Sequence record: PV730300.1
Strand: one strand, 5' to 3'
Origin: a phage
DNA: 64,000 nt
Positions within the stretch are counted from its first letter, which is position 1. Every line of letters starts with the position of its first letter. A program made the translations under genes and the position numbers. Shown piece by piece: positions 17,873 to 41,434 of the stretch. The notes below the pieces were generated by a model. It had not been told where the DNA came from and searched no databases. It saw nothing but the letters and a program-made list of their open reading frames with translations.

Positions 17873-20470
17873 CTAGTGACAGGACGCCCAGGAATTACCC
17901 ACATCATACCCAGCAGTAAGCTGAACATTAAGATTGTAAAATTCTCCAGCCTTAGTAACAGCTAAAGCAGCAAGTTCACCTGCCCGACTATAAGCTGTAA
18001 ACCATCCACCTTTGGGAGATTCATGAATGTTAGCCCAAATTTGCCCTGTCTCTTTTTCCTTATTATGCTTCCATTCTTCGACTTTAGCAAGGCATTCTTT
18101 ATCAATTTTCTTTTGTTCTTCAGGATCGTCTACTTTCTTCCAACCTAATGATTCAGGTGAAAACCATTTAAATTCTACAAGGTTACGAGAAACTTCAAGC
18201 TGGGCTTCATCGTGATATGCAATCATTTGTTGCACGAAATCTTTATTCTTCCAGTCATCTTTAAAGAAGTCAACACTTAATCCTTCTTCTTCGATCATGT
18301 CGTCATAAATAACCATTGCACGTTTAGCACAGATAACCCCACCACTTTGGAACAGAGAGTTAAGAATCGCGTGAGCAGAACGAGTAGGAACCTTACGACC
18401 GTCAATACCCAAAACATATTGTTTACCAGTCTTAACCCAGAAATCGTTTAAACGTTCTTTAAGACGCGCCAATGGGAATGCAGCTTCCCAGAAAGCATCG
18501 AACACCAATTGACCTGTAAACTTATCGCTACCAATTGTTTTAGCAACCTTGTCGGCTTGTGCACCATAGGTAATACCATACTTAACAGATTTAGCAGGAC
18601 TACGTTCAAATTTACGTCCAATAGTTTCAGTGATACGTTTTGCCATCATTGTGTGAACATCGTTAGGTTTCTCTAACAACAGAGCGTTACAATATTCGTG
18701 TGGCTCCGGCTCGTACCGCCAACAGTAGTGTGATTCAATTTTTGCTTCCAAAGAGTCGAAGTCGTAGCCGATCTGGAAGTATTTAGGAACCTCCACACCA
18801 AACAAGTTACGCATCTCCCATCCAAACAAAGATGTGACACGAGGAATATTAGCTACAGATCTATGCTTCATACGAGAGGTTGCAGCATCACATGTAGCGG
18901 CTGGGGTAGGAATACGACCATCCGCCCTTACTGCGGCTAAGAAACCTTTATCGTATTCTTGATCTTCCTCATCTTCTTCCCAATCAGCACCACCACCTAA
19001 AATAGAATTCCTACGATGCTTATACGTTAAGTATTCTACAATCTGTGTAGCATAAGGGAATTTCTCACCCAAAGCTTGCAGGTTAGGACAGATTTCTTTT
19101 TCCTGACCTTTGGTAAAGCATGGGTTAGTCAATACTTTAAGACCGCGACCTTTACCTTTTGCTATACGCTCTTGAATCTTCCTCTCCAAGGTTTCCGGTG
19201 TGCACTCCAGATGATCACAACGATCCTGACAAAAATTAGAAGATAGAGTTTGCTCAACGTAAGCTCGAATACCTTTCTGAAGTTCTTCCTCGCTCTTTTT
19301 AATCTTGGTGCCAGATTTAAGAGTCAAGTCTTTATCTTTATATTCAGACGGTACCCAACCTAATCCTACAAGCCAGTTTTTAATATGGGTAGTATCGTTC
19401 AATGTTGCAGGTATGTTAGGATCACACAAAGGCTCATCTGCTGCAACTGGCAGTTTCCACTCTTTCCCCAACATCACTAACCACCAATCTCCATCCCTCT
19501 CTTCCAAATGACCATCATGTTTCTTAGCAAAATTGATCATATGGTTAGTTGGCTCTAAGTTCTTTTTAATTTGCAACTTAGGTGGAATAAAAGCCTTAAG
19601 ATAACCTTTTGTTGCTGGTTTAGGTGGCAAAATAGGCTCAACGAGTAAACGAAGACGCTCCATTTCTGCATCCAAAAAAGCAAGGTTCTCTTCTGCTTGC
19701 TTCATGTTAAAAGCAAACCCACGGTGTTCCTGGCGTGTAATAATGTCTGCTACACGTTGTTCAAGTTCAAATGGACCTTCCCATTTATCATAATCGCCCC
19801 ATTCTTCCATAAGGTAATTATATACGCTCGTATTGGCTTTGTTGTCATAGATACAGTAATAAAGCATATCCGCAGCAAAAGTCTTAAATCGATCTTCTTC
19901 TGGAATCTCTTTACGGAAATCTATTTTTACATCACCACCTGCCTTTCGAGAAAGTGCTGCCAAACTATGTCCTGATTTGCCCTCAATCTTTCGATCTGGG
20001 TTTAACACTTTACTCAAAATCAAGGAGTCAATAAGTTTTACCTTATTTTTGCCCCACGTGTTATATTTAACACTGTAATCTAAGCCATAAAACAGTTTTG
20101 TAGCCAACCAGTCGTAGTTGATACCGTTGTGAGCCACAGCCATTTCAACCAGATATTCAGGCTTATCTTTAAAATAACCTTCATGATTAATAAAGTCTGG
20201 GAAATCTTTTAGTTGAAAATGTGTGTAATCTTGCGCCACATATTCTTTAAGAACATATGTGTATTTACCATCTGACTCTTCATAAGGACGCCCATCAAAG
20301 ATGTATTTAGGGCCATCGTGGAAAGCTACTATTTCTCCTGTTTCATGGTTCTCTAAGACAATACAGTGCATTTGAAATGTGTCTTTGAGACGATAAGGAC
20401 TAGCTAAATAATCGATAGTGTCATTATTCAACAATCCGTTTGCTTCAATATCCCATGTAAACTTACTCAC
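17873..20470 (-). CDS. family-A DNA polymerase with 3'-5' exonuclease domain (865 aa)
   Basis: N-terminal WDIEANGL exo motif; GIDGRKVPTRSAHAILNSLFQSGGVICAKRAM and the C-terminal ...NSWASCH tail align by eye with T7 gp5-type polymerases. Confidence 0.9.
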   Translation of the reverse strand: MSKFTWDIEANGLLNNDTIDYLASPYRLKDTFQMHCIVLENHETGEIVAFHDGPKYIFDGRPYEESDGKYTYVLKEYVAQDYTHFQLKDFPDFINHEGYFKDKPEYLVEMAVAHNGINYDWLATKLFYGLDYSVKYNTWGKNKVKLIDSLILSKVLNPDRKIEGKSGHSLAALSRKAGGDVKIDFRKEIPEEDRFKTFAADMLYYCIYDNKANTSVYNYLMEEWGDYDKWEGPFELEQRVADIITRQEHRGFAFNMKQAEENLAFLDAEMERLRLLVEPILPPKPATKGYLKAFIPPKLQIKKNLEPTNHMINFAKKHDGHLEERDGDWWLVMLGKEWKLPVAADEPLCDPNIPATLNDTTHIKNWLVGLGWVPSEYKDKDLTLKSGTKIKKSEEELQKGIRAYVEQTLSSNFCQDRCDHLECTPETLERKIQERIAKGKGRGLKVLTNPCFTKGQEKEICPNLQALGEKFPYATQIVEYLTYKHRRNSILGGGADWEEDEEDQEYDKGFLAAVRADGRIPTPAATCDAATSRMKHRSVANIPRVTSLFGWEMRNLFGVEVPKYFQIGYDFDSLEAKIESHYCWRYEPEPHEYCNALLLEKPNDVHTMMAKRITETIGRKFERSPAKSVKYGITYGAQADKVAKTIGSDKFTGQLVFDAFWEAAFPLARLKERLNDFWVKTGKQYVLGIDGRKVPTRSAHAILNSLFQSGGVICAKRAMVIYDDMIEEEGLSVDFFKDDWKNKDFVQQMIAYHDEAQLEVSRNLVEFKWFSPESLGWKKVDDPEEQKKIDKECLAKVEEWKHNKEKETGQIWANIHESPKGGWFTAYSRAGELAALAVTKAGEFYNLNVQLTAGYDVGNSWASCH

Positions 20471-21264
20471 TATTCCTCCTTTCTAATGTTCTCCAGAACC
20501 CACTGAAGTTCTTTTAAACTTAAACTTCTTACTCCCGCAGTTTTACTAGCTTCAGCTTTAAGTAACGGGTAAGCCTCAATGATACGCGTTTTAAGATCAG
20601 AAGTCAAGGCTTTTAAAAAATAGGTAGATGCTTCAGATAAAGAATCTTCTTCTGATAACACTTTACCTGCACTTGCTCCCGCTCTCCTAACAGCTATATC
20701 GTAGTCTTTACTGTTACCTAATACGAATAATCGATTCTCTCCTAAAACAACGGGAGAACGCTTCTCGTTGCGTTTAATCCATACCTGGAATACACAAGGA
20801 ACATCCCAAGGTTCTCCATGAAGAATAAAAGATCCTTTTGGACATTCTTCTTCGTAAAGAAGATGCATATGGGGATTTAGTTTGTGTGCAAAAAAGATTT
20901 TTTGAAATGTGCGAGGCAAGATAAAACAAATACCACCTTCGTTATCCAGCATTTCAGCACAATGGTTAAAGAATTTAATGGCAAGACTAGCATTTTTTCC
21001 AAAAGGAGGATTACCGACAAAAGCAGTTACACTACCAACAGACTCAACAGATTGAGCTAAAAAATCTGCCTCAATACAATCTTCAAACTTAGGGTCAATA
21101 TCAAAAGAAGTTATGTTTTTAAAACAAGAAGAGAAAGCTCCTTCTCCCGCAGATGGTTCTACGTAGTTAGCTTCCTCTCCAAAAATTTCTTTGATCTTAT
21201 CACATAAGAACCCCGCATAAGCGGGGTTAGTGTAATATTGATCAAGTGTGTTCAACTTGCTCAA
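20470..21264 (-). CDS. DNA methyltransferase (N6-adenine or N4-cytosine class), no adjacent restriction enzyme recognised
   Basis: SAM-binding EPSAGEGAF and catalytic NPPFG motifs; its stop overlaps the polymerase start. Confidence 0.7.
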   Translation of the reverse strand: MSKLNTLDQYYTNPAYAGFLCDKIKEIFGEEANYVEPSAGEGAFSSCFKNITSFDIDPKFEDCIEADFLAQSVESVGSVTAFVGNPPFGKNASLAIKFFNHCAEMLDNEGGICFILPRTFQKIFFAHKLNPHMHLLYEEECPKGSFILHGEPWDVPCVFQVWIKRNEKRSPVVLGENRLFVLGNSKDYDIAVRRAGASAGKVLSEEDSLSEASTYFLKALTSDLKTRIIEAYPLLKAEASKTAGVRSLSLKELQWVLENIRKEE

Positions 21265-21799: not shown

Positions 21800-23576
21800 A
21801 ATAGTTGCTATCCGTAGGCAAATTAGCAGGATTGTTGAAATACTGCTCTTTGTCATGCAGAGTTGCAGTTCTAATGTCATAGTAAAACTGCCCTGCCGGA
21901 CCAGTTTCCGAGAACTCACGGTTTTTTAGGATAAAGCAATGAGTCGTATTTCGTTCTACAGGGTCTTCAGCGGCTTTATCTCGTTCCAAAGCCAAGGTAA
22001 TACCAGCGCCTTTAGCCAAGAAACTACTACCCATTGCATCGTCCTCTGTTAAGTGTTCATTGCCACCATTAGCCGATTTCTTAACGTGTGAGATGACGAT
22101 AATAGTTATAGCATACTCTTTCATGATGCGCTTCAACCATGTTGCTAACTCTTCCTGGGCTTGAACATCCATACCAGAAAGCAAATCAGAATAAGGGTCG
22201 ATAACAAGAATTGTTACTCCAAAATAGATGATCATCTCCAAAACTTTTTCTTTGATAGACTCCACATCTGCTCCACGATCATCACACACATAAAAACGTG
22301 GTGATCCATCTTCTCTTTCGTAAAAATCTAGGATTTTTTCTTTATTCTCTTCCAGGATTTGAAATTTCTCTTCCGGTGTTTTCCTATGTAGAGGAATATG
22401 CAGGAACGAGGACAACAGGTTACGAGAATATTTCTTATAAGTTGCTTCCAATGACAGAATACCAAGAGTATGTTCTGGGTGTGCAACGATAATATGTTTG
22501 GTGATCTCATTCACCATCAAAGTTTTACCGATACTGGTCTTTGCCAGAATGACTGTAATCTCTTCCTCTACTAAACCACCACCCAGCATATTTGCAGCAA
22601 CACGCATAAAAGGAGGCAAGGTAATCATCTTGGATTCCAAGCATTCTAATGCAGCTTCATACAAGACATTAGAAGCATAAACACCTGCTGGGGTGTATAG
22701 ACGAGCACTCCAAAAAGCTTTTACGAAATCCTTTGCACGACCTTCTTCCAGATACTGATTGGCATCCTTAAGATCCATCTGCATACGGTAGACTTTGTTA
22801 CGAGGCAACACCTTAACAATATTTTCAAATGCCTCATTACCCGCTTTGTCATTATCCATGCAAACAATAATCTTCTTAAATTTTTCAAAGAAAGGATATT
22901 GTGCCTGAACTTGTTTATACATACTGGTTTCACCAGTTGTGCCACTAACTACTGCTGGAAGTTCATATTTGTTGTCCAAGTTTTCAGACAGCATTTGATA
23001 AGCTGCCAGAGCATCGTGTTCACCACCTGTAATTACCACAGTATGAGAACGGTCTGCAAAACGAATTTGTCCAAAAAGATCTACATCTTTACCTACTTGA
23101 CCAATAGGTTTACTGAAATCTTTAGGATGGATACGACGCTTAAAACCAACCAATTCTTTACCGATGGTAGTTGGATATAAACAACTTTCTACTACCATCT
23201 GATCCCCTTCCTGACGGTATTCATAACGAACACCATAGAAAGATGAAACTTTTTCTTTAATGCCTCGATAACCACGTGGGTTGGTTGATGTTTCTTGAAC
23301 AATTTTACGATGAATCTGTTTATTAAATTCCGAACCCACAATCTCCTCCTCTTCTTCTAAAACTTCACCATTTTCTCGTAACCATTCTACGCTAGGAATA
23401 GTGTATTCACACGCAAAGCACTTAGCACCTTTATGCTCTCCATTAGAATCTAATCCATAAACCATCAAGTTATTACGAGAGCGATCCTTGCCATTTTTCA
23501 TGCAGCGCGGACAACCTGTATGCCCTTCCTTGCTAAGATCAACATCAAATCCATATTTAGTTATAATGTGCGACAC
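21798..23576 (-). CDS. bifunctional primase-helicase, T7 gp4-like (592 aa)
   Basis: N-terminal zinc finger (CPRC...CFAC), TOPRIM-like DNDKAGNEA, DnaB-family Walker A (GKT) region. Confidence 0.85.
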   Translation of the reverse strand: MSHIITKYGFDVDLSKEGHTGCPRCMKNGKDRSRNNLMVYGLDSNGEHKGAKCFACEYTIPSVEWLRENGEVLEEEEEIVGSEFNKQIHRKIVQETSTNPRGYRGIKEKVSSFYGVRYEYRQEGDQMVVESCLYPTTIGKELVGFKRRIHPKDFSKPIGQVGKDVDLFGQIRFADRSHTVVITGGEHDALAAYQMLSENLDNKYELPAVVSGTTGETSMYKQVQAQYPFFEKFKKIIVCMDNDKAGNEAFENIVKVLPRNKVYRMQMDLKDANQYLEEGRAKDFVKAFWSARLYTPAGVYASNVLYEAALECLESKMITLPPFMRVAANMLGGGLVEEEITVILAKTSIGKTLMVNEITKHIIVAHPEHTLGILSLEATYKKYSRNLLSSFLHIPLHRKTPEEKFQILEENKEKILDFYEREDGSPRFYVCDDRGADVESIKEKVLEMIIYFGVTILVIDPYSDLLSGMDVQAQEELATWLKRIMKEYAITIIVISHVKKSANGGNEHLTEDDAMGSSFLAKGAGITLALERDKAAEDPVERNTTHCFILKNREFSETGPAGQFYYDIRTATLHDKEQYFNNPANLPTDSNY

Positions 23577-23588
23577 TTTGTTCTCCTG

Positions 23589-23867
23589 TTAAAATGGTTC
23601 GTTAGTCTCCATCATATATTCTGCTTCTAGTTCTTCCATGTGCTTTCTAAATTGGAAAGCAATTTCTGCTACAGTTACATTTAAATCTTTTTCAAAAACT
23701 TCTGTAGAGCCTTCGTAAAAACGAATACCGTCAATTAAAAGCCCTCCGTGGTAATCCCAATCACTTTCACGAGAAAGCGGGTTAGGCTCTTCATAATAGT
23801 AATCCACCTCCACGACTAAAGCTTTCCCGTTACGAGTGGTGTATTCAAAATCAAAAGTGTTAATCAT
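23589..23867 (-). CDS. hypothetical protein (92 aa)
   Basis: ORF translationally coupled to neighbours. Confidence 0.45.
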   Translation of the reverse strand: MINTFDFEYTTRNGKALVVEVDYYYEEPNPLSRESDWDYHGGLLIDGIRFYEGSTEVFEKDLNVTVAEIAFQFRKHMEELEAEYMMETNEPF

Positions 23868-24811
23868 TATAGCTCCTCAAATAAAAGTCTACGACGCTCA
23901 TTCAACACATCAATGTGATAATGAGTCCTGACATACTTAGCTAATGCTAATCCTTTCTCCATGCAAACATCGGGAGCACTTAATAAGTATTCCGTAATAT
24001 CTTTCCACTCGGAAGGTGTTTCAGCAAAGAATAACAGATCTTTAAACTCTTGTGTATGATAATTCTCACGAGGAGAACAGATCAAAGGTAAACCCTTAGC
24101 ACCTGCCTCAAGAATTTTAAGATTGCTTTTTGCATTATTAAACACGTTATCAATCAATGGCGCAAGACTGATTTGATGACCATCGTAAGATTCCATGTAG
24201 TTGGCATATGGTCTTACACCTTCATAAACACAAGTTGGTGCTACATTTTCCCTGATTACAGACCATTCACGACTACTTAAAACTTCAGAATCCCTACGAA
24301 AACCACATATTGTAAGATCTTTACCAAAATCGGGCAAGATAGCCAAATCTTGTTTATGTGTTTCACTTCCAGCCCAGACTAATGGAGTTTTGGAGTAGCG
24401 ATCACGGGTCAACACAAATTGACCTTCATCGTAAGGAAGTCCATTAGGGATTATGTGCACATTATCATTGTATTGTGAAAGTTCAACTTGCAAGGCAGGT
24501 GTCGTAGTTGTAACAAGGTCACTGTGCTCTAAAAACCATTTTAAATGTTCACGAATACCTGATTCAAAAATACCTTCTAACATGTGTCCTTTTGGAATAA
24601 CTAAAGAGTCATCCAAATCCATAACCATTTTAAAGCCTAGGTTTTTAAGGGCTAAAAAGCCCTCTTTACCTTTTGTTGGCACTCCGTTAAAAACGAAAAC
24701 GTTGTGTTTAGGTTGTGAAGAGAACTGCCTTGAGTAAGGCAGCACTACCCTATGGAAATCGCAGACACTATAATTGATTCCGTTACGATTGTCAAGAATT
24801 ATTTGTCCCAT
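23867..24811 (-). CDS. glycosyltransferase-like protein, paralog 1 (314 aa)
   Basis: Alignable by eye over its length with the adjacent gene (shared CD-HR-V-P, VWAG, SNLKILEAGAKG-P segments); C-terminal E/G-rich segment resembles GT-B donor-binding region. Confidence 0.4.
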   Translation of the reverse strand: MGQIILDNRNGINYSVCDFHRVVLPYSRQFSSQPKHNVFVFNGVPTKGKEGFLALKNLGFKMVMDLDDSLVIPKGHMLEGIFESGIREHLKWFLEHSDLVTTTTPALQVELSQYNDNVHIIPNGLPYDEGQFVLTRDRYSKTPLVWAGSETHKQDLAILPDFGKDLTICGFRRDSEVLSSREWSVIRENVAPTCVYEGVRPYANYMESYDGHQISLAPLIDNVFNNAKSNLKILEAGAKGLPLICSPRENYHTQEFKDLLFFAETPSEWKDITEYLLSAPDVCMEKGLALAKYVRTHYHIDVLNERRRLLFEEL

Positions 24812-24818
24812 ACTTCAC

Positions 24819-25766
24819 CTACAAACTTTCAATAACCTGGCGTCGCAATTCGTTTGCATCTGCCAGATTGTAGTGTGTTCGAACATGTTCCGCTAAGAAC
24901 AAGCCACGATCTTCCCGATAGTTTGGATTGCGAAGAAGCTTAACAATTTCGTAATGCCATTCTGCTTTATTCTCTGCGTAAGCAACAGCACGAGCATCTA
25001 CAGGGTTAAAATAAGGTAACACCTTAGAACAAACAATCGGAATACCTTTTGCCCCAGCTTCCAGGATTTTGAGATTACTTTTGCAATTATTAAAATCATT
25101 ATCTACCAAAGGAGCTATAGCAATAGCATGACTTTCGTAAACACTCATGTAATTATCTAAATCTTTTACAGCAGCTTTATATTTGGCATTTGGTAAATTT
25201 CTGCGAATCTTAATCCACTCTTGTCCCGTGATGCTCTGCGATGCTTCATATCCCGCAATAGTAAGAAGTTCATCATCGAAAGTATTAGAGACTAGTCGTA
25301 AATCGGGTTCGTGACTAGCACCGCCAGCCCATACAACAGGGGTACCGGATGAACGATCATTTGACAAAGTGAATTGTCCACTATCAAAAGGAAGTGCATT
25401 TCGGATCACAACAACATTCCTATTTAAGTGACGGATCTTATATGCCAAGTATTCCGTAGTCACAATAACCACATCAGCAAGTTTAACCATAGCCACAATA
25501 GCATGAGTGTTTGACTCGTATAGACTTGCTAAATAATGTTCTGGATTAAGTTGGTAGAAATCATCTAAATCTACAACAATCTTAACACCTTGACGTTTCA
25601 AAGATAAAACGTATTCTGCACCTTTAGAGTGGATACGGTTAAACACAACAACATCTTTCTTAGGTTGAAGATTATGGTTGTTAAATGGCATAACAATACG
25701 ATGATAGTCACAACCGCTGTGAGGTTTTGCATCAATTTTTAGTTTAGACCATTTTTTATTTGACAT
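24819..25766 (-). CDS. glycosyltransferase-like protein, paralog 2 (315 aa)
   Basis: Tandem paralog of 23867-24811. Confidence 0.4.
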   Translation of the reverse strand: MSNKKWSKLKIDAKPHSGCDYHRIVMPFNNHNLQPKKDVVVFNRIHSKGAEYVLSLKRQGVKIVVDLDDFYQLNPEHYLASLYESNTHAIVAMVKLADVVIVTTEYLAYKIRHLNRNVVVIRNALPFDSGQFTLSNDRSSGTPVVWAGGASHEPDLRLVSNTFDDELLTIAGYEASQSITGQEWIKIRRNLPNAKYKAAVKDLDNYMSVYESHAIAIAPLVDNDFNNCKSNLKILEAGAKGIPIVCSKVLPYFNPVDARAVAYAENKAEWHYEIVKLLRNPNYREDRGLFLAEHVRTHYNLADANELRRQVIESL

Positions 25767-26439
25767 GTGCTAGTGCCTCCTCATAGGAAATTCGGATTTT
25801 CCCATTTTTAATATCCTCTAAAGATGCTTTATATTCTTCCCAGTTAATCCCGATAGCAGCTTCTTTCTCTTCTTTTGTCAGATTAGCAAAAGGCATAGGA
25901 TTGTTTCCAAAAACATCGTCTGGGTGGATATAAGCCATGATACGAAGTGGACAAGGTGTTGCCTGAATACCATGATTCAAACCAGCAGCTTTCAAACGGT
26001 GTCCCCATTCGGCATCTTCAAAACCATAACCGTGAGTGTAAGGGCGGAAATAACCCATCTTCTCAACAACGGCACGAGAATACATTGCAAATTGACACAT
26101 TGCAAGTTCCCAGAGAATAACTTCTCCTTTGCTTCCAACAACTTTATCTTTGAAGTACTCCGGCATACCAAAGAAATCCCATCCTCCAGAAACAGCCTGA
26201 TCTACAAAATATGTTTCCCATCCTTCCATGACTGGGTAGCAATCATCGTCAAAAATAAACCAATAATCATAACCTTCTTCATAGAACTGGTGCATAAGTT
26301 CATTCCTGGCATAAGCTACACCTTTACGATCTGGATCGTTGAATACTCGAAAATCTGCACGTGGATCTGTTACAAGGTAGTCTTTAAGTGGACGGACACC
26401 TACAGTGATAACACCCACTCCGATTTTAATATTTTCCAT
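25756..26439 (-). CDS. glycosyltransferase-like protein with DxD-type motif (227 aa)
   Basis: WFIFDDDCYP resembles the GT-A DxD metal/donor-binding motif. Confidence 0.35.
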   Translation of the reverse strand: MENIKIGVGVITVGVRPLKDYLVTDPRADFRVFNDPDRKGVAYARNELMHQFYEEGYDYWFIFDDDCYPVMEGWETYFVDQAVSGGWDFFGMPEYFKDKVVGSKGEVILWELAMCQFAMYSRAVVEKMGYFRPYTHGYGFEDAEWGHRLKAAGLNHGIQATPCPLRIMAYIHPDDVFGNNPMPFANLTKEEKEAAIGINWEEYKASLEDIKNGKIRISYEEALAHVK

Positions 26440-26447
26440 TTTCTCTC

Positions 26448-27011
26448 CTAAATAGTTTTACTGTGATCATGACAGTGTAATAAATGATGTATAGACCGTT
26501 GAGGATTTGTTTGACCTAATCTGTAAATGTGAAACAGATACATTCCCCGCATCAATCCTAACCTCTTTCCTTTTTCATGTAAAGTGCGAGAGAAAATTAA
26601 GTCAAATTGGATAGATTTTTCTTCGAAAGGAATTTCATTCCACAGTGATTTCCTAAAAAGCAAAAAGAAACCAGCTAAAGGTGTTCCAAAAGGAACTTCT
26701 TCAACGTTTGTTTTATGATATTCCCGTGCAATTTTAGCATATTCTATGTGATTTAGAATGTCTGGGTCATCATTAATTTGGTTAGAGAAAAGCTGATAAC
26801 CACTACCCAGCCTATTACAAGTTGCACCTATTACATCAAAAGGTGGGTTTGACATAATAAGCTCTTCAAGCATAGATGGTTGATCAGGTAGGAGGAACAT
26901 TGTATCGGTATCTCTTAAACACACCCAACTATCATCTGGAAGAACGGCAATAGCTTCATTAATAGCCTTGCCGATATTTCCTGTCAGATAGGGAGTAATA
27001 TAATAAATCAT
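26448..27011 (-). CDS. glycosyltransferase-like protein (187 aa)
   Basis: CLRDTDTMF DxD-like motif; same operon as the other three GT-like genes. Confidence 0.3.
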   Translation of the reverse strand: MIYYITPYLTGNIGKAINEAIAVLPDDSWVCLRDTDTMFLLPDQPSMLEELIMSNPPFDVIGATCNRLGSGYQLFSNQINDDPDILNHIEYAKIAREYHKTNVEEVPFGTPLAGFFLLFRKSLWNEIPFEEKSIQFDLIFSRTLHEKGKRLGLMRGMYLFHIYRLGQTNPQRSIHHLLHCHDHSKTI

Positions 27012-27027
27012 TCTCCCCTCCGTTATA

Positions 27028-27219
27028 TTAACTGTCAGCTACAATCCCACGTTTAATCATTTCTTGTTGGATTTGGATCACACGATCTCGTGCTTCCATA
27101 TATTCTTTAAAAGATTCTTGAAGATGGTCACGAGCTACGTCTCGTAGCTTAATCAGTTTGTCGTTTGTCACTTCTTGAAGAGAGATTTCGCCAGTTTCAT
27201 TGGTCCCAAGCGTTTTCAT
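27028..27219 (-). CDS. hypothetical protein (63 aa)
   Basis: Small ORF in co-directional block. Confidence 0.4.
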   Translation of the reverse strand: MKTLGTNETGEISLQEVTNDKLIKLRDVARDHLQESFKEYMEARDRVIQIQQEMIKRGIVADS

Positions 27220-27475
27220 TTACAACCTCCTTAATAGCTACTGCACAGTTCTTACAAATACATTGACCTTTGTTCTTAGAAATTTCAATGTAAGGTTCAT
27301 TTTCGTTTTCTCCGCGTCGTGAGTCGTATATTACTGTATTGAAGCAGACAACGCAAATGTTTTTAATAACGACATATTTTTGCACTTTCTGTTTAGTGCG
27401 AAAATTGACTTCAATGACTTCTCCCATCAGTGAATCTCCCCTAAAATGTTGTTTTGAGACATTACTGCGGAGCAT
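27197..27475 (-). CDS. small cysteine-rich protein, possible zinc ribbon (start uncertain)
   Basis: CVVCF...CICKNC cysteine pairs; N-terminus may start at the internal MGEV. Confidence 0.35.
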   Translation of the reverse strand: MLRSNVSKQHFRGDSLMGEVIEVNFRTKQKVQKYVVIKNICVVCFNTVIYDSRRGENENEPYIEISKNKGQCICKNCAVAIKEVVNENAWDQ

Positions 27476-27774
27476 TCTACAGCATCATGAGTCCTTGCAA
27501 AACGCTCCCACAACACAGCATCTACTTTAAGAACCATACAAGGATAAATACTGTCGTTGATCATATCAATGCTATATTTATCTACATCCTTTTCATCTTC
27601 CATAAACAAAGTAGCGTATGCTTCTAAATGCTTACGGGTGTAGTATACATCCTCTTCGGTAAGACCGACAACCAGGTAACTTGCTACAACAACAGTATTA
27701 TCTTCTTGCATTTTAACTCCCCTTTGGTAGATAGAAACCATGCACTTTATCTCGATAAACAAGACGCATATCAC
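27427..27774 (-). CDS. hypothetical protein (start uncertain)
   Basis: ORF overlapping its neighbours at both ends; real start probably internal. Confidence 0.3.
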   Translation of the reverse strand: MICVLFIEIKCMVSIYQRGVKMQEDNTVVVASYLVVGLTEEDVYYTRKHLEAYATLFMEDEKDVDKYSIDMINDSIYPCMVLKVDAVLWERFARTHDAVECSAVMSQNNILGEIH

Positions 27775-28234
27775 GTTCCCAGTGTGTCCTTATATTCCGT
27801 TTCTTGAAGTATAGAGCACCTTTAGTAACATCTAAAACAGACCGCAATTCAGGAAAATGTTTCTCTAAATAAAGTAAACGCTCCGCTATTGCTTTTGCTT
27901 CCTGCCACTTATCTTTCTCTGTTACGTTAAAAGTTTTCGCATATGAGAATTGTCCTTTCTGGAACAAGACTCCTCTGACTGTGTTAGGGAAGTAGGTATC
28001 ATTTCTTCTGTTGATTACCACATTCCCAACGGCATTCATTCCTTTTTTACCCAGACCGCGACCTTCTGCGTAAATTGCACAAGCTAATAGAATTTTATCA
28101 TTATATTGCTTTGTACATTTGTGAACTACTTTAGCGGTTTTTACGTTTGCAGCTTCGGCTTTCGCCACAACAGGTGTAAATGTAAAAGCAGTTAAGGATA
28201 GTAACGCAACTGTTACAAAGTTTTTTATCAGCAA
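27713..28234 (-). CDS. secreted SleB/CwlJ-like cell-wall hydrolase (endolysin candidate), TTG start
   Basis: N-terminal signal-like hydrophobic segment ending AKA; YAEGRGLG...NAVGNVVINRRND...FPNTVRGVLFQKGQFSYA matches cell-wall hydrolase family 2 pattern; AGGAGG RBS 7 nt before TTG. Confidence 0.6.
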   Translation of the reverse strand: MLIKNFVTVALLSLTAFTFTPVVAKAEAANVKTAKVVHKCTKQYNDKILLACAIYAEGRGLGKKGMNAVGNVVINRRNDTYFPNTVRGVLFQKGQFSYAKTFNVTEKDKWQEAKAIAERLLYLEKHFPELRSVLDVTKGALYFKKRNIRTHWERDMRLVYRDKVHGFYLPKGS

Positions 28235-28334
28235 ATTTTGCCTCCTTTTTAAGTTAACGAATTTCTAGTATAACACGATAGAGGCTTTATTGCAAGAGGG
28301 GGGATTTCTCCCCCTCAAAATCATTTGTTAATTA

Positions 28335-28937
28335 TTATGGACATTCATACCATTCTTTTTTACCACCGAAGGCCATCACCACATCACAAATATCCAGACC
28401 AGCTTTACCTACACCATATGCTTTCAGCTTCCATTCCCCATCTTCACGAACCAAGGAAGCCACGTGGCAGATTGTGTTGCCAGCTACTTCAGGAGCCAGG
28501 AAGTCAAAATCCAGAATTTCCACATTGCGCTCGGAGTCGAAGATTTTAAGCATACCTTCAGAAGCATGACCAAAACGTTTCAGACCTGTATCATCATCAA
28601 TGGTCAGGACAAAGGCAATCTCTTGTGCATCAGGAGAGATTTTAGCCAGAGTAATATCAATCTGCTCCATGCTGCCAGTTCCATCACGAACATCGTCACC
28701 AGCGAAGGTAGAACGTTCAGGATCAAACTTGTTAGCATAGCAAACCAGGTGACGTGCAGACAGCATTTCAGGATTGCCAGCGGCATTGTGACGACAAACC
28801 AGTGCACTTACATCCAGATCCAGTTTAGAATCAGATTTCCAAGAGAATTCCAGGCGCAGTTCTTTCAGAGCCGGAGCAACTTTCTTCAGGGAAATTTTTT
28901 CGCTAGAGCCTTTTTTCAGGGAAATTTTATCAGTCAT
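28335..28937 (-). CDS. TerD-family protein (200 aa)
   Basis: N-terminal ISLKK repeats and GDDVRDGTGSMEQIDI...LTIDDD Ca-binding-like acidic motifs typical of TerD domains. Confidence 0.65.
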   Translation of the reverse strand: MTDKISLKKGSSEKISLKKVAPALKELRLEFSWKSDSKLDLDVSALVCRHNAAGNPEMLSARHLVCYANKFDPERSTFAGDDVRDGTGSMEQIDITLAKISPDAQEIAFVLTIDDDTGLKRFGHASEGMLKIFDSERNVEILDFDFLAPEVAGNTICHVASLVREDGEWKLKAYGVGKAGLDICDVVMAFGGKKEWYECP

Positions 28938-28952
28938 CTTTTGTCTCCTCTA

Positions 28953-29222
28953 TTATTTAAGTGTAATACCAGTTACAGTCAATTCTACTTCCAAAAGCTT
29001 AGATGTGTTTTGGATTGATACTAATTGTGCATGATGGTTTAGTTCTACAGCAGAACAATCATTTTCCCCATCATCTACTTTTAAATAAACAATGATTTCA
29101 CTAAGGTCTAAACCATTTTCGTCAAATGCATTTTCATAGACGAAAGTATCTCCTACATCCAAATCTTTAATGGTAAGGCATCGTTTATTTACTTTTTGCT
29201 CATCAATTTCGAAGTTTAACAC
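28953..29222 (-). CDS. hypothetical protein, paralog of 30244-30522 (89 aa)
   Basis: Shares KDLDVGDTF...LEVELTVTGITLK pattern with 30244-30522. Confidence 0.45.
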   Translation of the reverse strand: MLNFEIDEQKVNKRCLTIKDLDVGDTFVYENAFDENGLDLSEIIVYLKVDDGENDCSAVELNHHAQLVSIQNTSKLLEVELTVTGITLK

Positions 29223-29451
29223 TTCTTCCTCCTAATGTTATCTCCGGTTTGTATATACGAAGAATTATAGCATTTTCATTTTCTTTGTCAACCCATTCTT
29301 CATAATCGGGCCATACATGAATCTCTACTCTACTTACAATATCTTCCATTCGCACAGTCCCAATGAAATACTCTTTGAGACTGCGTATAATGAAAGCTTC
29401 TCTCTCGCGCCAATAATTTTCTATGACTTGAGAGGCAAGCTCGTCGATCAT
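29203..29451 (-). CDS. hypothetical protein (82 aa)
   Basis: ORF coupled to neighbours. Confidence 0.4.
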   Translation of the reverse strand: MIDELASQVIENYWREREAFIIRSLKEYFIGTVRMEDIVSRVEIHVWPDYEEWVDKENENAIILRIYKPEITLGGRSVKLRN

Positions 29452-30242
29452 TTTTTAGCACCTACTTTAACAACCCACTCTCCGAACTCTTCAGATAAGA
29501 GTTTGTCATAAAGCTCTGAATCTGTCAAGTCTAAATCTTTAATGCCAATAAAACCAACATTATCATAAGCATTTGCCAGTTCTTTCAGGAAGCCAAACTT
29601 CTCATTACCAACGCCAACCATGAACCAATAGATAGGCTTATTCTTATTTTCTTCAATAAGACGACGAACAGCACTAGGATCACCATTCTCACCATCCGTC
29701 TGGAAGAATACAACACCAGGGGTAACGTCAGCACCTGGTTCAGATACAGCTACAACTTTTTCACGCTCTACAGACACTGTTTCAGTTTTACCAAGCAGAC
29801 GATTAAAGAAGCCTTTCTTTGGAGCCTCCTCTTGTACCACTTGTTTAGTGGTAATATATTTAGTAACAGTGCCAAAATACTCATCGTAGATATCCGCCAT
29901 TACAGGGGCGTAATTTGTTCCACCTCCGATACGAACATTACGCATACATTTACCAACATAGTCATCGTAAACATCTGCTGTTGCTGGAGTAAGCTCTTGG
30001 GAACTCGTATTGAAGGCCCACATATCAATTTGTTGATTATCGTCGAACAGCATACCAAAAGGAAGCAGTTTACCTACAAAATCACTCACTACCCCACTAG
30101 AATATAGACCATGCATACTACCAGAAATATCTAGAGCACATGCTACACGAAGAACAATCTTACCTTCATTCAGGTTCTTATTCTTTTTCAGAGAGAAAGC
30201 AAGGTTTTCTTGACGTTTTTTCAGGCTGATTTTCTCGGACAT
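29448..30242 (-). CDS. vWA-domain protein (TerY/TerF-like) with TerD-like N-terminus (264 aa)
   Basis: MIDAS-type DISGSM motif; N-terminal EKISLKK as in TerD family. Confidence 0.55.
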   Translation of the reverse strand: MSEKISLKKRQENLAFSLKKNKNLNEGKIVLRVACALDISGSMHGLYSSGVVSDFVGKLLPFGMLFDDNQQIDMWAFNTSSQELTPATADVYDDYVGKCMRNVRIGGGTNYAPVMADIYDEYFGTVTKYITTKQVVQEEAPKKGFFNRLLGKTETVSVEREKVVAVSEPGADVTPGVVFFQTDGENGDPSAVRRLIEENKNKPIYWFMVGVGNEKFGFLKELANAYDNVGFIGIKDLDLTDSELYDKLLSEEFGEWVVKVGAKK

Positions 30243-30243
30243 A

Positions 30244-30522
30244 TTATTTCTCCTTCTTAAGTGTAATATTGGTAACTTCTAAATCTACTTCCACCATATT
30301 TGTATCTGGTGGGATGCAATGAGTATAGCCTCGTTGTGCTAGTGATCCATTAATACAAATCGCACTGTTTGTGGAATTTTTAATGAACACCAAGTTACGG
30401 TAGGTATCCAACCCTGCGTCTTCATAGGCATCATAATACATGAATGTGGCCCCTACGTCAAGATCTTCGAAAGCAATAGGTAAATCCTGACACTTTTCTT
30501 CTTGAATATTGAATCTAAACAC
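30244..30522 (-). CDS. hypothetical protein, paralog of 28953-29222 (GTG start)
   Basis: GGAGG then GTG start gives an N-terminus aligned with its paralog; longer track ORF would overlap the upstream gene by about 70 nt. Confidence 0.45.
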   Translation of the reverse strand: MFRFNIQEEKCQDLPIAFEDLDVGATFMYYDAYEDAGLDTYRNLVFIKNSTNSAICINGSLAQRGYTHCIPPDTNMVEVDLEVTNITLKKEK

Positions 30523-31078
30523 GCATACCTCCTCTACCAATTTTGAAGCCCAAATCGTAAGCTTCCTTAGTGATCTTTTGTAACTCACTTATAGGAAGTG
30601 TTACAAGAGGATCATCTTCTTCAATTTCCATCTTGTCATCTTCTGTTTCAATGAGAGTATTATGCACTTTGTGATAAGGGTTGTCAACACGTTTAAACTT
30701 ATTCTTTTCTGTGCTGAAAAAACAATCTGGATCTTCTTCACCATCACCCCAACCTTGATTAGGATCTCCGTCAGATTGTTCTGTAGGGATTTCACCTGTA
30801 AAGTACTCTTCCAGCACCATAGCGATACCGTCCCTTGGATTTGAGGAATGCATTAAATCACAAACCTTACCCCAATCCATAGCCCATTCGAACCGTTCAC
30901 GAACGCCATTTTCATCCTCCTTTCCAGAGAAAACACAACCATAACTATCATAGTTGCCATACATCTCTTCAATAACAGCACCGTCCTTCAAAAGAAAGAG
31001 ATAACAAGGTGATCCGTCGAAAGAAGTAGAAAGGGCAGCTTTGCCCGATTCCTTACACAAAAAACTAAAACAACCCAT
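30515..31078 (-). CDS. hypothetical acidic protein (187 aa)
   Basis: ORF; Asp/Glu-rich C-terminal half. Confidence 0.45.
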   Translation of the reverse strand: MGCFSFLCKESGKAALSTSFDGSPCYLFLLKDGAVIEEMYGNYDSYGCVFSGKEDENGVRERFEWAMDWGKVCDLMHSSNPRDGIAMVLEEYFTGEIPTEQSDGDPNQGWGDGEEDPDCFFSTEKNKFKRVDNPYHKVHNTLIETEDDKMEIEEDDPLVTLPISELQKITKEAYDLGFKIGRGGMRV

Positions 31079-31281
31079 TACAAACCCTCCTTCAGATTAT
31101 CAAGAGCTACAGTGGTTTCACAAAAGTCTCCATACGTTTTATGATGTTCCAGAAAAGCTTCGGGTCCACCCCAATCATTGTCTTGTGTATTCCAGCCATC
31201 AATAAAAGCATCTTCAATGATTGTGATCAGTTCTTGTCGGGTTAACTGGATAATATTAGGGTCGTTATCGTAGTTAAACAT
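31078..31281 (-). CDS. hypothetical protein (67 aa)
   Basis: ORF coupled to neighbours. Confidence 0.4.
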   Translation of the reverse strand: MFNYDNDPNIIQLTRQELITIIEDAFIDGWNTQDNDWGGPEAFLEHHKTYGDFCETTVALDNLKEGL

Positions 31282-31447
31282 CCTCTTCCTCCTCTAAAAT
31301 ATGGAACCCGTAATTACAATAGTCCTGAAAGGTTTCGTGCGCAAGATCTTCTATATCCTCTTGAGACATATCATCTTCAATTTCGATATCCACAACCTCA
31401 TTGCATCCACACCAAGCAGTTTCAATACTCACTCGTAATATTTTCAT
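31274..31447 (-). CDS. small acidic protein (57 aa), not in ORF track
   Basis: ATG overlaps the upstream stop (TAATG); ends overlapping the next start. Confidence 0.3.
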   Translation of the reverse strand: MKILRVSIETAWCGCNEVVDIEIEDDMSQEDIEDLAHETFQDYCNYGFHILEEEEDV

Positions 31448-31641
31448 TACTCCTCCTCATTGAAGTCAATATCTGCAAGGAGTTGGAATTTACGGAAGTT
31501 ACGACAACCTTCATAAATATAACAATCACGACAAACTGCTAGAACACTTGGGGGATATATGCCTCCCATCGGTGCGAATCGTTTTTCGTCATCATAACGG
31601 ACACCAATGTCTTCATCAATTATATAGATACGGATTCTCAT
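31447..31641 (-). CDS. hypothetical protein (64 aa)
   Basis: ORF coupled to neighbours. Confidence 0.4.
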   Translation of the reverse strand: MRIRIYIIDEDIGVRYDDEKRFAPMGGIYPPSVLAVCRDCYIYEGCRNFRKFQLLADIDFNEEE

Positions 31642-41334: not shown

Positions 41335-41434
41335 TATTAATCCTTATTTTGTGAGTAGAACTATTATTCTACCTCTTCCAACCGAAAAAAGCTTTGAGGA
41401 AAATCAAAAAAGGCGCAAAGTGCGCCTTTAAGTT

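What the first reader, a model, noticed from the sequence alone, without database searches (positions are those of the whole stretch)
23867..27011. Operon of four glycosyltransferase-like genes, including a tandem paralog pair, inside the DNA replication module
Two adjacent ~315-aa paralogs with GT-B-like C-terminal signatures are followed by two smaller proteins with DxD-like motifs (DDDCYP, RDTDTM), all co-directional between the primase-helicase and the lysis/Ter region. In virulent phages, glycosyltransferases placed among replication genes often glycosylate modified DNA bases to block restriction; alternatives are virion-protein glycosylation or host envelope modification. No hydroxymethylase or thymidylate-synthase homolog was recognised here, so any base-modification step would be encoded elsewhere or be novel.
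Basis: inference. Interest (0 to 1): 0.6.

Follow-up and report, generated by a model that had tools for sequence, protein, structure and literature searches.

The report
Phage four-glycosyltransferase glycan-building gene cassette
This E. coli phage (phAPEC8 type) does carry four sugar-transferring enzyme genes in a row, but published and comparative evidence suggests they build a sugar chain on something other than its DNA, most likely virion proteins, and the true target is still untested.

Summary
Four tightly packed minus-strand genes (26448-27011, 25756-26439, 24819-25766, 23867-24811) encode a minimal GT-A enzyme (187 aa), a second GT-A (227 aa) and two GT4-like GT-B paralogs (41% identical). 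The window is a Phapecoctavirus (98.9% identical to Shigella phage SF1-1). RefSeq and BASEL already annotate these genes as glycosyltransferases, so the gene identification is not new.

phi92-like BASEL phages carry the same cluster yet are described as exceptionally restriction-sensitive, and no Phapecoctavirus or Justusliebigvirus isolate is among the three phages HincII failed to cut. No hydroxymethylase or TET was found: relatives have ThyX, not a ThyA homolog.

New here: the first three genes form a mobile cassette (187-like, 227-like, GT-B) that recurs in the same order in temperate prophages. There it sits beside terminase or capsid genes. In small viral contigs the pair often travels with sugar O-methyltransferases and extra GT2s. 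Relatives also encode RmlC/RmlD.

Best reading (about 40%): cytoplasmic assembly of a probably rhamnose-containing glycan on virion proteins. Rivals are host-envelope remodelling, another cytoplasmic target, and DNA. The acceptor is inferred, not shown.

The parts
26448..27011 (-). Gene 1: 187-aa minimal GT-A glycosyltransferase, first gene of the conserved three-GT cassette
26904..26912 (-). DxD motif (D34-T-D36) of the 187-aa GT-A
   Evidence: Translates to DTD. D34 and D36 are invariant in 22 homologs.
25756..26439 (-). Gene 2: 227-aa GT-A glycosyltransferase, which overlaps the next gene by 11 nt
   Evidence: phrog_2456 E 9e-79. Weak sub-threshold Pfam hits to TAGT, GT2 and Glyco_transf_7C. 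37-43% identical partners sit next to GT-B in four prophages. GT-B is adjacent in 69 of 80 viral loci. The fold itself was not modelled.
26242..26250 (-). DDD (D64-D66) metal/nucleotide-sugar motif of the 227-aa GT-A; a second conserved E141-D142 lies at 26014-26019
   Evidence: Translations checked. Invariant in 21 homologs.
24819..25766 (-). Gene 3: 315-aa GT4-like GT-B glycosyltransferase, the ancestral partner of the GT-A genes
23867..24811 (-). Gene 4: 314-aa GT-B paralog, a diverged tandem duplicate that retains all invariant residues
   Evidence: 41% identical to gene 3. phrog_7162 E 2e-145. Pfam Glyco_trans_1_2 at 25.2 bits against a cutoff of 25. 36-39% identical to prophage singletons. 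It is included in A1, so all invariant columns hold for it.
23589..23867 (-). 92-aa acidic ORF (pI 4.2), translationally coupled to gene 4; membership of the system is uncertain
   Evidence: ATGA overlap. phrog_4240, function unknown. Syntenic in the myovirus relatives L009, L010 and Bas61. Absent from the prophage cassette.
29264..29291 (-). Perfect sigma-70-like promoter (TTGACA, 16 nt, TG-TATAAT), a candidate start of the long transcription unit containing the cluster
   Evidence: 12/12 match. The scan reports no minus-strand terminator-like site between it and the cluster. This is a consensus match only.

Best explanation
The four genes are a cytoplasmic glycan-assembly set: an ancient mobile phage cassette of three glycosyltransferases (187-aa GT-A, 227-aa GT-A, GT4-like GT-B) plus a duplicated, diverged GT-B. 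Shown: all four are soluble glycosyltransferase-fold proteins with intact conserved motifs. Shown: they are co-transcribable. Shown: the cassette recurs in the same gene order in unrelated temperate phages. Inferred: the enzymes act in sequence, with one initiating on an acceptor and the others extending, to build a short oligosaccharide of up to four steps. Inferred: they use host nucleotide sugars plus dTDP-L-rhamnose, which relatives can make from the host's dTDP-4-keto-6-deoxyglucose pool with phage RmlC and RmlD. Inferred, and the weakest step: the acceptor is one or more virion structural proteins (capsid, tail or fibre), giving a glycan coat analogous to those of mycobacteriophages and chloroviruses. 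The confidence given is for the whole statement including the acceptor. That these are real glycosyltransferases forming one glycan-building module I put at about 0.95.
For: Enzyme identity.
Soluble: no TM-like segment (max 19-residue Kyte-Doolittle score below 1.7) and three of the four are acidic.
Conserved three-GT cassette in the same order in prophages: Enterobacter (L006), Serratia (L012), P. alliivorans (L013) and Paraburkholderia (L024). Four further Pseudomonas prophages carry the GT-A/GT-B pair.
Position in those prophages is the packaging/head module: directly upstream of (HNH)-TerS-TerL (L005, L006, L012, L019-L021); directly after the major capsid gene (L013); between the head-completion and gp10-like genes, next to a collagen-repeat protein and a Big_1 tail tube (L024); directly upstream of portal (Chitinophaga L031); upstream of TerS in Streptomyces phage KimJongPhill.
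The validated Che8 virion-glycosylation genes occupy the equivalent spot next to HNH at the cos end (function cited from PMC11256854 and PMC12363180).
The most recurrent neighbours in 67 small-phage loci are FkbM/TylF-type O-methyltransferases and extra GT2s, which points to a glycan cluster.
Chromosomal GT-B homologs in Burkholderia and Trinickia are linked to intimin/invasin adhesins, which suggests protein substrates.
RmlC (E 8e-67) and RmlD (E 6e-74) are present in the closest relative.
Evidence against DNA as the target.
Against: No glycoprotein data exist for any phage carrying this cassette, so the acceptor is wholly inferred.
In this phage the cluster lies in the replication module next to primase-helicase and DNA polymerase, not among structural genes. 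In some small phages the pair sits at the replication/packaging boundary (L104, L086).
DNA-modifying enzymes can also sit in head modules: SF1-1 has an annotated methyltransferase between portal and scaffold.
There is no detectable homology to Che8 gp108-110 (hhalign probability below 1%), so the precedent is only an analogy.
RmlC and RmlD are not in this window, and their link to these GTs is by co-occurrence only.
Confidence: 0.4

Rival explanations
1. Host-envelope remodelling. The GTs act on lipid-linked (undecaprenyl-PP) or LPS-core/ECA intermediates at the inner face of the membrane. Phage RmlC and RmlD divert the ECA/O-antigen precursor dTDP-4-keto-6-deoxyglucose. Together these alter or deplete the phage's own receptors (ECA and the LPS outer-core glucose), limiting superinfection or loss of progeny on cell debris.
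For: The closest structural neighbours include GT4 enzymes with lipid-linked acceptors (PglA 8dqd, WlaC 6eji, PimA/PimB', WbnH, WaaG). These phages depend on ECA and LPS core (PMC8594841). The ZCKP1 authors proposed surface-polysaccharide modification to impede superinfection (PMC6141743). RmlC and RmlD consume an ECA precursor (pathway from established knowledge).
Against: There are no membrane segments and no flippase or polymerase partner. In temperate relatives the cassette lies in late structural operons that are normally silent in lysogens, which is the wrong place for lysogenic conversion. Outer-membrane glycan turnover is slow relative to a lytic cycle (general knowledge). FkbM/GT2-rich neighbourhoods lack export genes.
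Confidence: 0.2
2. Another cytoplasmic acceptor. The enzymes glycosylate a host protein (for example a translation or defence factor), a non-structural phage protein, or a small molecule, as host takeover or anti-defence.
For: The enzymes are soluble. In this phage they are co-transcribed with early/middle replication genes. The GT-B structural neighbours include protein-glycosylating enzymes (GtfA 4pqg, SdgB 7ec1, OGT-like 5djs and 2jlb) and small-molecule GTs (BshA, SenB, LmbT). PHROGs files these families under 'moron, auxiliary metabolic gene and host takeover'.
Against: No specific candidate target emerges. A three- or four-enzyme set plus O-methyltransferases in relatives suggests an oligosaccharide, which would be unusual for regulatory protein modification. 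The recurrent head-module location in temperate phages is not explained.
Confidence: 0.15
3. DNA glycosylation. The GTs add sugars to phage DNA bases, possibly at sparse or sequence-specific sites, or on an unrecognised hydroxylated base.
Against: Phages with the same cluster are exceptionally RM-sensitive in vivo, and Stephanstirmvirinae are targeted by Druantia III and ARMADA II, which the authors think recognise unmodified DNA (PMC13463889). Phapecoctavirus and Justusliebigvirus isolates are not among the HincII-uncut phages. There is no ThyA-type hydroxylase or hydroxymethylase: the relative has ThyX. Neither TET/JBP nor ThyA is among the 25 families listed for the neighbour clusters, and none is recorded within 10 kb in the prophage loci. 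TAGT falls below the gathering score. The T4 DNA GTs rank only 21st and 37th. The relative encodes at least five annotated DNA methyltransferases.
Confidence: 0.12

Closest known systems
Mycobacteriophage virion glycosylation (Che8 gp108-110, Corndog, Myrna; Freeman et al. 2023, cited via PMC11256854 and PMC12363180)
   Same: A phage-encoded set of two or three cytoplasmic glycosyltransferases. In Che8 it lies immediately upstream of the HNH/terminase end of the genome, the same position the cassette takes in the Enterobacter and Serratia prophages. Methyltransferases accompany the GTs in relatives.
   Different: No detectable sequence or profile homology (hhalign probability below 1%). Gram-negative hosts. 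In this phage the cluster lies in the replication module. No virion glycan has been demonstrated.
Chlorovirus PBCV-1 capsid glycosylation machinery (e.g. A064R rhamnosyltransferase/methyltransferase; review PMC7019647)
   Same: Virus-encoded, cytoplasmic, multi-GT assembly of a glycan containing rhamnose and O-methylated sugars on a capsid protein, independent of host secretory machinery (from established knowledge of that system).
   Different: A eukaryotic algal virus. No sequence relationship was tested. The glycan structure and acceptor are known there and unknown here.
T-even and related DNA glycosyltransferase systems (T4 AGT/BGT; T2/T6 beta-glucosyl-HMC alpha-GT; arabinosyl-5hoC systems of RB69, DLP3 and HY126, PMC13326640)
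   Same: GT-B and GT-A enzymes encoded among DNA-metabolism genes of virulent myoviruses. A dedicated nucleotide-sugar supply is encoded elsewhere in the genome.
   Different: Those systems need a ThyA-homolog hydroxymethylase or hydroxylase and give restriction-resistant DNA. Here the relative has ThyX only and the DNA of phages with this cluster is restriction-sensitive. Structural similarity is generic (rank 21 and below).
TET-associated glycosyltransferases (Pfam PF20691, TAGT)
   Same: The best, though weak, Pfam hit of the 227-aa GT-A and of its prophage homologs. A small phage GT-A with a DxD motif.
   Different: Score of 19.3 bits against a gathering cutoff of 27.5, covering only about 37 residues around the DxD. 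No TET/JBP partner was seen in any locus examined.
GT4 family retaining glycosyltransferases (PimA, PglA/PglH, BshA, WaaG, sucrose-phosphate synthase)
   Different: Only 9-15% identity. Compact at 315 aa. Pfam thresholds are barely met or missed. The second Glu of the canonical EX7E motif is not present (read from sequence). There is an invariant N-terminal C-x-x-H-R and D-x-D-D signature of unknown role.

Membership tests
GT-B fold, GT4-like glycosyltransferases (Pfam Glyco_trans_1_2 / Glyco_trans_1_4) | Two Rossmann-like domains with an inter-domain cleft | tested here: met
GT-B fold, GT4-like glycosyltransferases (Pfam Glyco_trans_1_2 / Glyco_trans_1_4) | Score at or above Pfam's gathering threshold | tested here: inconclusive
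   The 314-aa protein scores 25.2 bits on PF13524 against a cutoff of 25, so it just passes. The 315-aa protein scores 20.4 (cutoff 25) and 22.8 on PF13692 (cutoff 27), so it misses.
GT-B fold, GT4-like glycosyltransferases (Pfam Glyco_trans_1_2 / Glyco_trans_1_4) | C-terminal EX7E motif (definition from general knowledge of GT4) | tested here: not met
   The first Glu (E236 in KSNLKILEAGAKG) is invariant. Eight residues on, the residue is Ile, not Glu (sequence).
GT-A fold, DxD glycosyltransferases | Single Rossmann-like alpha/beta/alpha domain | tested here: met
GT-A fold, DxD glycosyltransferases | Conserved DxD after a beta-strand | tested here: met
   D34-x-D36 is invariant in 22 sequences. 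D64-D65-D66 is invariant in 21 sequences. Coordinates verified.
TET-associated glycosyltransferase (PF20691) | Profile match above gathering score | tested here: not met
   19.3 bits against 27.5, covering residues 32-68 only. The prophage homologs score 20.9 and 16.5 bits.
TET-associated glycosyltransferase (PF20691) | Genomic association with a TET/JBP dioxygenase | tested here: not met
   No TET_JBP is recorded in the window's relatives or the prophage loci. It is not among the 25 families listed for 145 neighbour clusters. Families matched by a single cluster may not have been listed.
T-even-type DNA base glycosylation system | ThyA-homolog dCMP/dUMP hydroxymethylase or 5-hydroxy-dCMP synthase | tested here: not met
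   None in the window. The only thymidylate-synthase-like gene of the closest relative is ThyX (Pfam Thy1, E 1.7e-8) with no match to any solved ThyA.
T-even-type DNA base glycosylation system | Virion DNA resistant to restriction | not testable with these tools
   The literature argues the opposite. BASEL reports exceptional RM sensitivity of the group that includes Bas61, which has the same cluster. HincII failed only on ESCO10, ESCO47 and ESCO58, none of which is a Phapecoctavirus or Justusliebigvirus.
Mycobacteriophage virion-glycosylation GTs (Che8 gp108-110) | Sequence/profile homology to the validated enzymes | tested here: not met
   hhalign of A1, A2 and A3 against gp108, gp109 and gp110 gave probability 0.1-0.6%.
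Mycobacteriophage virion-glycosylation GTs (Che8 gp108-110) | Glycans covalently attached to capsid or tail proteins | not testable with these tools
   Needs glycoprotein staining or MS of virions.
GtrABC-type seroconversion systems | Membrane-embedded flippase (GtrA), bactoprenol GT (GtrB) and a polytopic serotype-specific GT | tested here: not met
   No hydrophobic segment in any of the four proteins (maximum 19-residue Kyte-Doolittle mean 0.76-1.65).
dTDP-L-rhamnose-dependent glycosylation | Phage-encoded RmlC and RmlD (with or without RmlA/RmlB) co-occurring with the GTs | tested here: inconclusive
   RmlC (PF00908, E 8e-67) and RmlD (PF04321, E 6e-74) are present in the 98.9%-identical relative SF1-1 but outside the region matching this window. 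RmlA and RmlB are variable among phapecoctaviruses. The donor specificity of the GTs is untested.

The most novel reading that the evidence does not exclude
A mobile three-glycosyltransferase cassette (223 relatives of its GT-A gene in IMG/VR; GT-B adjacent in 69 of the 80 loci examined) lets phages of Gram-negative bacteria coat their virion proteins with a rhamnose-containing, sometimes O-methylated glycan made from hijacked host nucleotide sugars. The carriers include the therapeutic-candidate E. coli genera Phapecoctavirus and Justusliebigvirus. This would extend virion glycosylation, so far shown only in actinobacteriophages and giant or algal viruses, to coliphages.
Probability: 0.4. Interest if true: 0.6.

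Novelty: new member of a known kind. Interest (0 to 1): 0.38.

Why it matters
Phapecoctavirus and phi92-like phages are broad-host-range candidates for phage therapy. If their virions carry a glycan coat, that would affect antibody recognition and neutralisation, as reported for mycobacteriophages. It could also affect particle stability, mucus or surface adherence and host range, and it would make these genes targets for engineering. If the enzymes instead remodel the host envelope or modify DNA sparsely, that would be a new exclusion or anti-defence route. Either way, the open question of what the dTDP-rhamnose genes and four glycosyltransferases of these phages are for becomes directly testable with a deletion mutant and mass spectrometry. 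As a gene-finding result, however, it is already in public annotation.

Tried and rejected
(1) Direct sequence search of three of the four proteins (315, 227 and 187 aa) against PDB and of all four against NCBIfam: nothing useful.
(2) The 'thymidylate synthase' of relatives as a possible hydroxymethylase or 5-hydroxy-dCMP synthase: rejected, since it is ThyX-like with no ThyA match, so the D169N signature test does not apply.
(3) RmlA/RmlB or other sugar-nucleotide genes inside the window: none found.
(5) EarP-like arginine rhamnosyltransferase: not among the 60 hits listed.
(6) Homology to Che8 gp108-110: none.
(7) The 92-aa downstream ORF as part of the mobile cassette: conserved only in myovirus relatives.
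(8) The ~560-aa protein next to the Burkholderia/Trinickia GT-B as a fused GT-A: no similarity and no Pfam domain.
(9) Collagen-like and Ig-like domains as shared acceptor candidates: present in the window's fibres and in the Paraburkholderia prophage, but these domains are common in phage fibres, so this is suggestive at most.
(10) Charge as a DNA-binding hint: three of the four proteins are acidic; this is not decisive.
(11) The Freeman et al. 2023 paper could not be retrieved.
(12) Not used: the exhaustive representative search, because it returns no annotation or context.
Full report
**What the window is.** The 3.8 kb around the finding is 98.9% identical to Shigella phage SF1-1 and about 98% identical to phAPEC8 and some 60 other Phapecoctavirus genomes (Stephanstirmvirinae). 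In RefSeq phAPEC8 the four genes are gp071-gp074, each annotated 'glycosyltransferase'. BASEL annotates the orthologs in phi92-like phages as 'putative glycosyltransferase' (twice) and 'putative disaccharide synthase' (twice). At the level of 'these are glycosyltransferase genes' the finding is already public.

**Checking the observation.** Four minus-strand ORFs lie at 26448-27011 (187 aa), 25756-26439 (227 aa), 24819-25766 (315 aa) and 23867-24811 (314 aa).
- The junctions are 8 nt, an 11-nt overlap and 7 nt, then a 1-nt ATGA overlap into a 92-aa acidic ORF, then 12 nt to the primase-helicase. Every start has a Shine-Dalgarno-like sequence.
- The scan found no minus-strand terminator-like site in 22697-29500. 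The only one, a weak 5-pair stem at 22696-22681, lies inside the primase-helicase gene, below the cluster. A perfect sigma-70 consensus sits at 29291-29264. The four genes are therefore part of a longer co-directional unit.
- The two ~315-aa proteins are 41% identical (E 1e-77).
- PHROG matches are overwhelming: phrog_7162 for both paralogs, phrog_2456 and phrog_14179, at E 1e-79 to 1e-149. Pfam is weak or sub-threshold, and PDB and NCBIfam sequence searches were empty.
D64-D65-D66 is invariant in 21 homologs of the 227-aa protein, along with E141-D142. D34-x-D36 is invariant in 22 homologs of the 187-aa protein.
- Both GT-B paralogs keep every invariant residue of the family (C19, H22, R23, D66, D68, D69, K229, E236 and others), so both are probably active.
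- None of the four has a transmembrane-like segment.

**Anatomy and evolution of the cluster.** The 315-aa copy overlaps the 227-aa GT-A gene and is 43-51% identical to single-copy homologs in prophages. The 314-aa copy is only 36-39% identical to them. The 314-aa gene is therefore the diverged duplicate.

'Bacterial' homologs of the GT-B turned out to be prophage genes. In each case a homolog of the 227-aa GT-A (37-43% identity) lies immediately upstream.

A homolog of the 187-aa GT (40-46% identity) precedes the pair in five places: Enterobacter, Serratia, P. alliivorans and Paraburkholderia prophages, and a distant 135-kb myovirus contig. A Devosia MAG also carries all three types, in a different order.

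The conserved unit is thus a three-GT cassette in the order 187-like, 227-like, GT-B. The window carries that cassette plus one extra GT-B.

In IMG/VR, 223 contigs encode a relative of the GT-A. Of the 80 best loci, 69 have a GT-B relative adjacent.

**Where the cassette sits.** In Stephanstirmvirinae and their relatives it lies next to primase-helicase and DNA polymerase. In temperate phages it lies in the packaging/head module:
- directly upstream of (metallopeptidase or HNH)-TerS-TerL in three Pseudomonas prophages plus the Enterobacter and Serratia prophages;
- directly after the major capsid gene in P. alliivorans;
- between the head-completion protein and the HK97 gp10-like gene in Paraburkholderia, flanked by a 581-aa collagen-repeat protein and a tail-tube protein with Big_1 domains;
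- as GT2 plus GT-B directly upstream of portal in Chitinophaga;
- as UDP-glucose dehydrogenase, methyltransferase and GT directly upstream of TerS in Streptomyces phage KimJongPhill.

In 67 small-phage loci the most recurrent neighbours are FkbM-type O-methyltransferases (several clusters, each in up to 13 loci) and extra GT2 enzymes. Terminase, capsid and DnaB also recur.

A Pfam tally over 145 de-duplicated neighbour clusters is led by Glycos_transf_2 (8) and Methyltransf_21 (5). It also contains TylF, terminase, portal and capsid. Neither TET_JBP nor thymidylate synthase is among the 25 families listed, out of 69 that matched. This is the gene content of a methylated-glycan cluster.

A non-phage variant exists in Burkholderia, Trinickia and related genomes. 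There the GT-B homolog follows an intimin/invasin-type adhesin (IAT_beta, Big_1) and a ~560-aa unknown protein.

**Sugar supply.** The closest relative encodes bona fide RmlC and RmlD outside the region covered by this window, but no RmlA or RmlB. Other phapecoctaviruses also have RmlA and RmlB (PMC10269720). From the established pathway, RmlC and RmlD convert dTDP-4-keto-6-deoxy-D-glucose into dTDP-L-rhamnose. All Enterobacterales make that precursor for ECA. It is therefore reasonable, though untested, that at least one of the four GTs is a rhamnosyltransferase. Distant relatives and two prophages instead place an NDP-sugar epimerase/dehydratase directly beside the GTs.

**The DNA hypothesis.** It has been published as a speculation for these phages (PMC7552041). 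Several points count against it.
[quoted passage not shown] Its phi92-like isolates, such as Bas61, have the same four-gene cluster in the same synteny at about 71% identity.
- Stephanstirmvirinae are also targeted by Druantia III and ARMADA II, which the authors believe recognise unmodified DNA (PMC13463889).
- In an APEC phage set, HincII failed only on ESCO10, ESCO47 and ESCO58. None of these is a Phapecoctavirus or Justusliebigvirus isolate.
- Known routes to glycosylated pyrimidines start from ThyA homologs or TET (PMC13326640). The only thymidylate-synthase-like protein of the relative is ThyX, and no TET was seen anywhere.
- The TAGT hit (19.3 bits against a cutoff of 27.5) and the match to the T-even alpha-GT PHROG cover only the DxD region.
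- The T4 DNA glucosyltransferases rank 21st and 37th among structural neighbours.
- BFVD neighbours of the 187-aa protein include no DNA glycosyltransferase.

Sparse or sequence-specific DNA modification is not excluded. I give this reading about 0.12.

**Most likely mechanism.**
- *Shown:* four soluble glycosyltransferases with intact motifs; three of them form a mobile, order-conserved cassette.
- *Inferred:* they act in sequence to build a short glycan from host UDP-sugars and phage-completed dTDP-rhamnose.
- *Inferred, weakest:* the acceptor is a virion protein.

The acceptor inference rests on five things: the repeated embedding of the cassette in head and packaging operons of temperate phages; the positional match with the validated Che8 system; the sugar O-methyltransferase company; the adhesin-linked chromosomal homologs; and the evidence against DNA.

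The window itself encodes plausible surface-exposed acceptors. One is a tail-spike/fibre protein with four collagen-like G-X-Y runs, including (GTN)4 (10947-12971). Another has an RCC1-like domain and two Big_2 domains (13013-14773). Such domains are common in phage fibres, so this is only suggestive.

Counter-evidence remains:
- here the cluster sits with the replication genes;
- there is no homology to Che8 gp108-110;
- DNA methyltransferases can also sit in head modules;
- GT4 neighbours include many enzymes with lipid-linked acceptors.

I therefore put virion-protein glycosylation at about 0.4, host-envelope remodelling at about 0.2, another cytoplasmic target at about 0.15 and DNA at about 0.12.

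**Comparison with known systems and novelty.** By fold the proteins belong to the GT-A (DxD) and GT4-like GT-B superfamilies. They fail membership of TAGT, of T-even-type DNA glycosylation systems, of GtrABC seroconversion systems and of the Che8 enzyme families. Functionally the nearest analogues are mycobacteriophage and chlorovirus virion glycosylation.

The genes and their generic annotation are already public, and the DNA idea has already been raised and questioned. This analysis adds four things: the definition of the conserved three-GT cassette, its duplication in Stephanstirmvirinae, its structural-module contexts, and its O-methyltransferase company. I rate it a new member of a known kind (phage-encoded glycan-assembly clusters), of moderate interest (0.38). 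A testable reading would raise the interest to about 0.6 if confirmed.

Noticed in passing
window 10947-12971 (+) and 13013-14773 (+): A tail-spike/fibre protein with a Tail_spike_N domain and four collagen-like G-X-Y runs, including GTNGTNGTNGTN. Its neighbour has an RCC1-like propeller and two Big_2 Ig-like domains. A Paraburkholderia prophage with the same GT cassette has a 581-aa collagen-repeat protein and a Big_1 tail tube beside it (L024). These are possible glycan acceptors, but such domains are common in phage fibres.
   Followed up: partly
window 20470-21264 (-): A 264-aa protein between the DNA polymerase and the primase-helicase region with an NPPF motif. It has weak Eco57I-methylase and DNA-methyltransferase PHROG similarity and is annotated as a putative N6-adenine methyltransferase in phAPEC8. 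The relative SF1-1 carries at least five annotated DNA methyltransferases, so methylation may be this lineage's DNA-modification strategy.
   Followed up: partly
window 28335-32750 (-): A tellurite-resistance-like set in a virulent phage, just upstream of the endolysin and GT cluster: TerD (28335-28937), a vWA-domain protein (29448-30242) and a TelA-like protein (31638-32750). It is conserved in a soil metagenome relative (L010). Its function in the phage is unknown.
   Followed up: no
L008, L014, L022, L025, L026 (Burkholderia dolosa, Trinickia spp.): A conserved non-phage locus in which a GT-B homolog (41-45% identity) follows an intimin/invasin-type inverse autotransporter (IAT_beta, Big_1, Invasin_D3) and a ~560-aa protein with no Pfam domain. 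Two further conserved unknowns lie on the opposite strand. This may be an adhesin-glycosylation system.
   Followed up: partly
protein P0020 (314 aa, from a 144.8-kb contig); Klebsiella phages KP2025, KP13-26 and 05F01 have a single GT-B copy: P0020 is 76% identical to the 314-aa paralog and 66% identical to the 315-aa paralog, although the two paralogs are only 41% identical to each other. It looks like a recombinant or hybrid of the two copies in phages that carry one GT-B.
   Followed up: no
window 29264-29291 (-): A perfect extended -10 sigma-70 promoter consensus (TTGACA, 16 nt, TG-TATAAT) lying inside or at the end of the small ORF 29203-29451. It may drive the long transcription unit that includes the lysis, GT and primase genes.
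   Followed up: no
SF1-1 record 40781-42183 (L004), outside the window: Relatives carry RmlC and RmlD but only some carry RmlA and RmlB. The phage can therefore depend on the host's ECA/O-antigen dTDP-4-keto-6-deoxyglucose pool, and ECA is also the primary receptor of these phages. Diverting the receptor's own precursor during infection would be worth testing.
   Followed up: partly
L052-L118 (IMG/VR small-phage contigs): Distant relatives of the GT-A/GT-B pair (25-33% identity, gene order reversed) are accompanied by one to three FkbM-family methyltransferases, extra GT2 genes and a recurrent 262-aa protein with no Pfam domain (19 loci). These often lie about 4-5 kb upstream of the large terminase. 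They form an uncharacterised and apparently common phage glycan cluster.
   Followed up: partly
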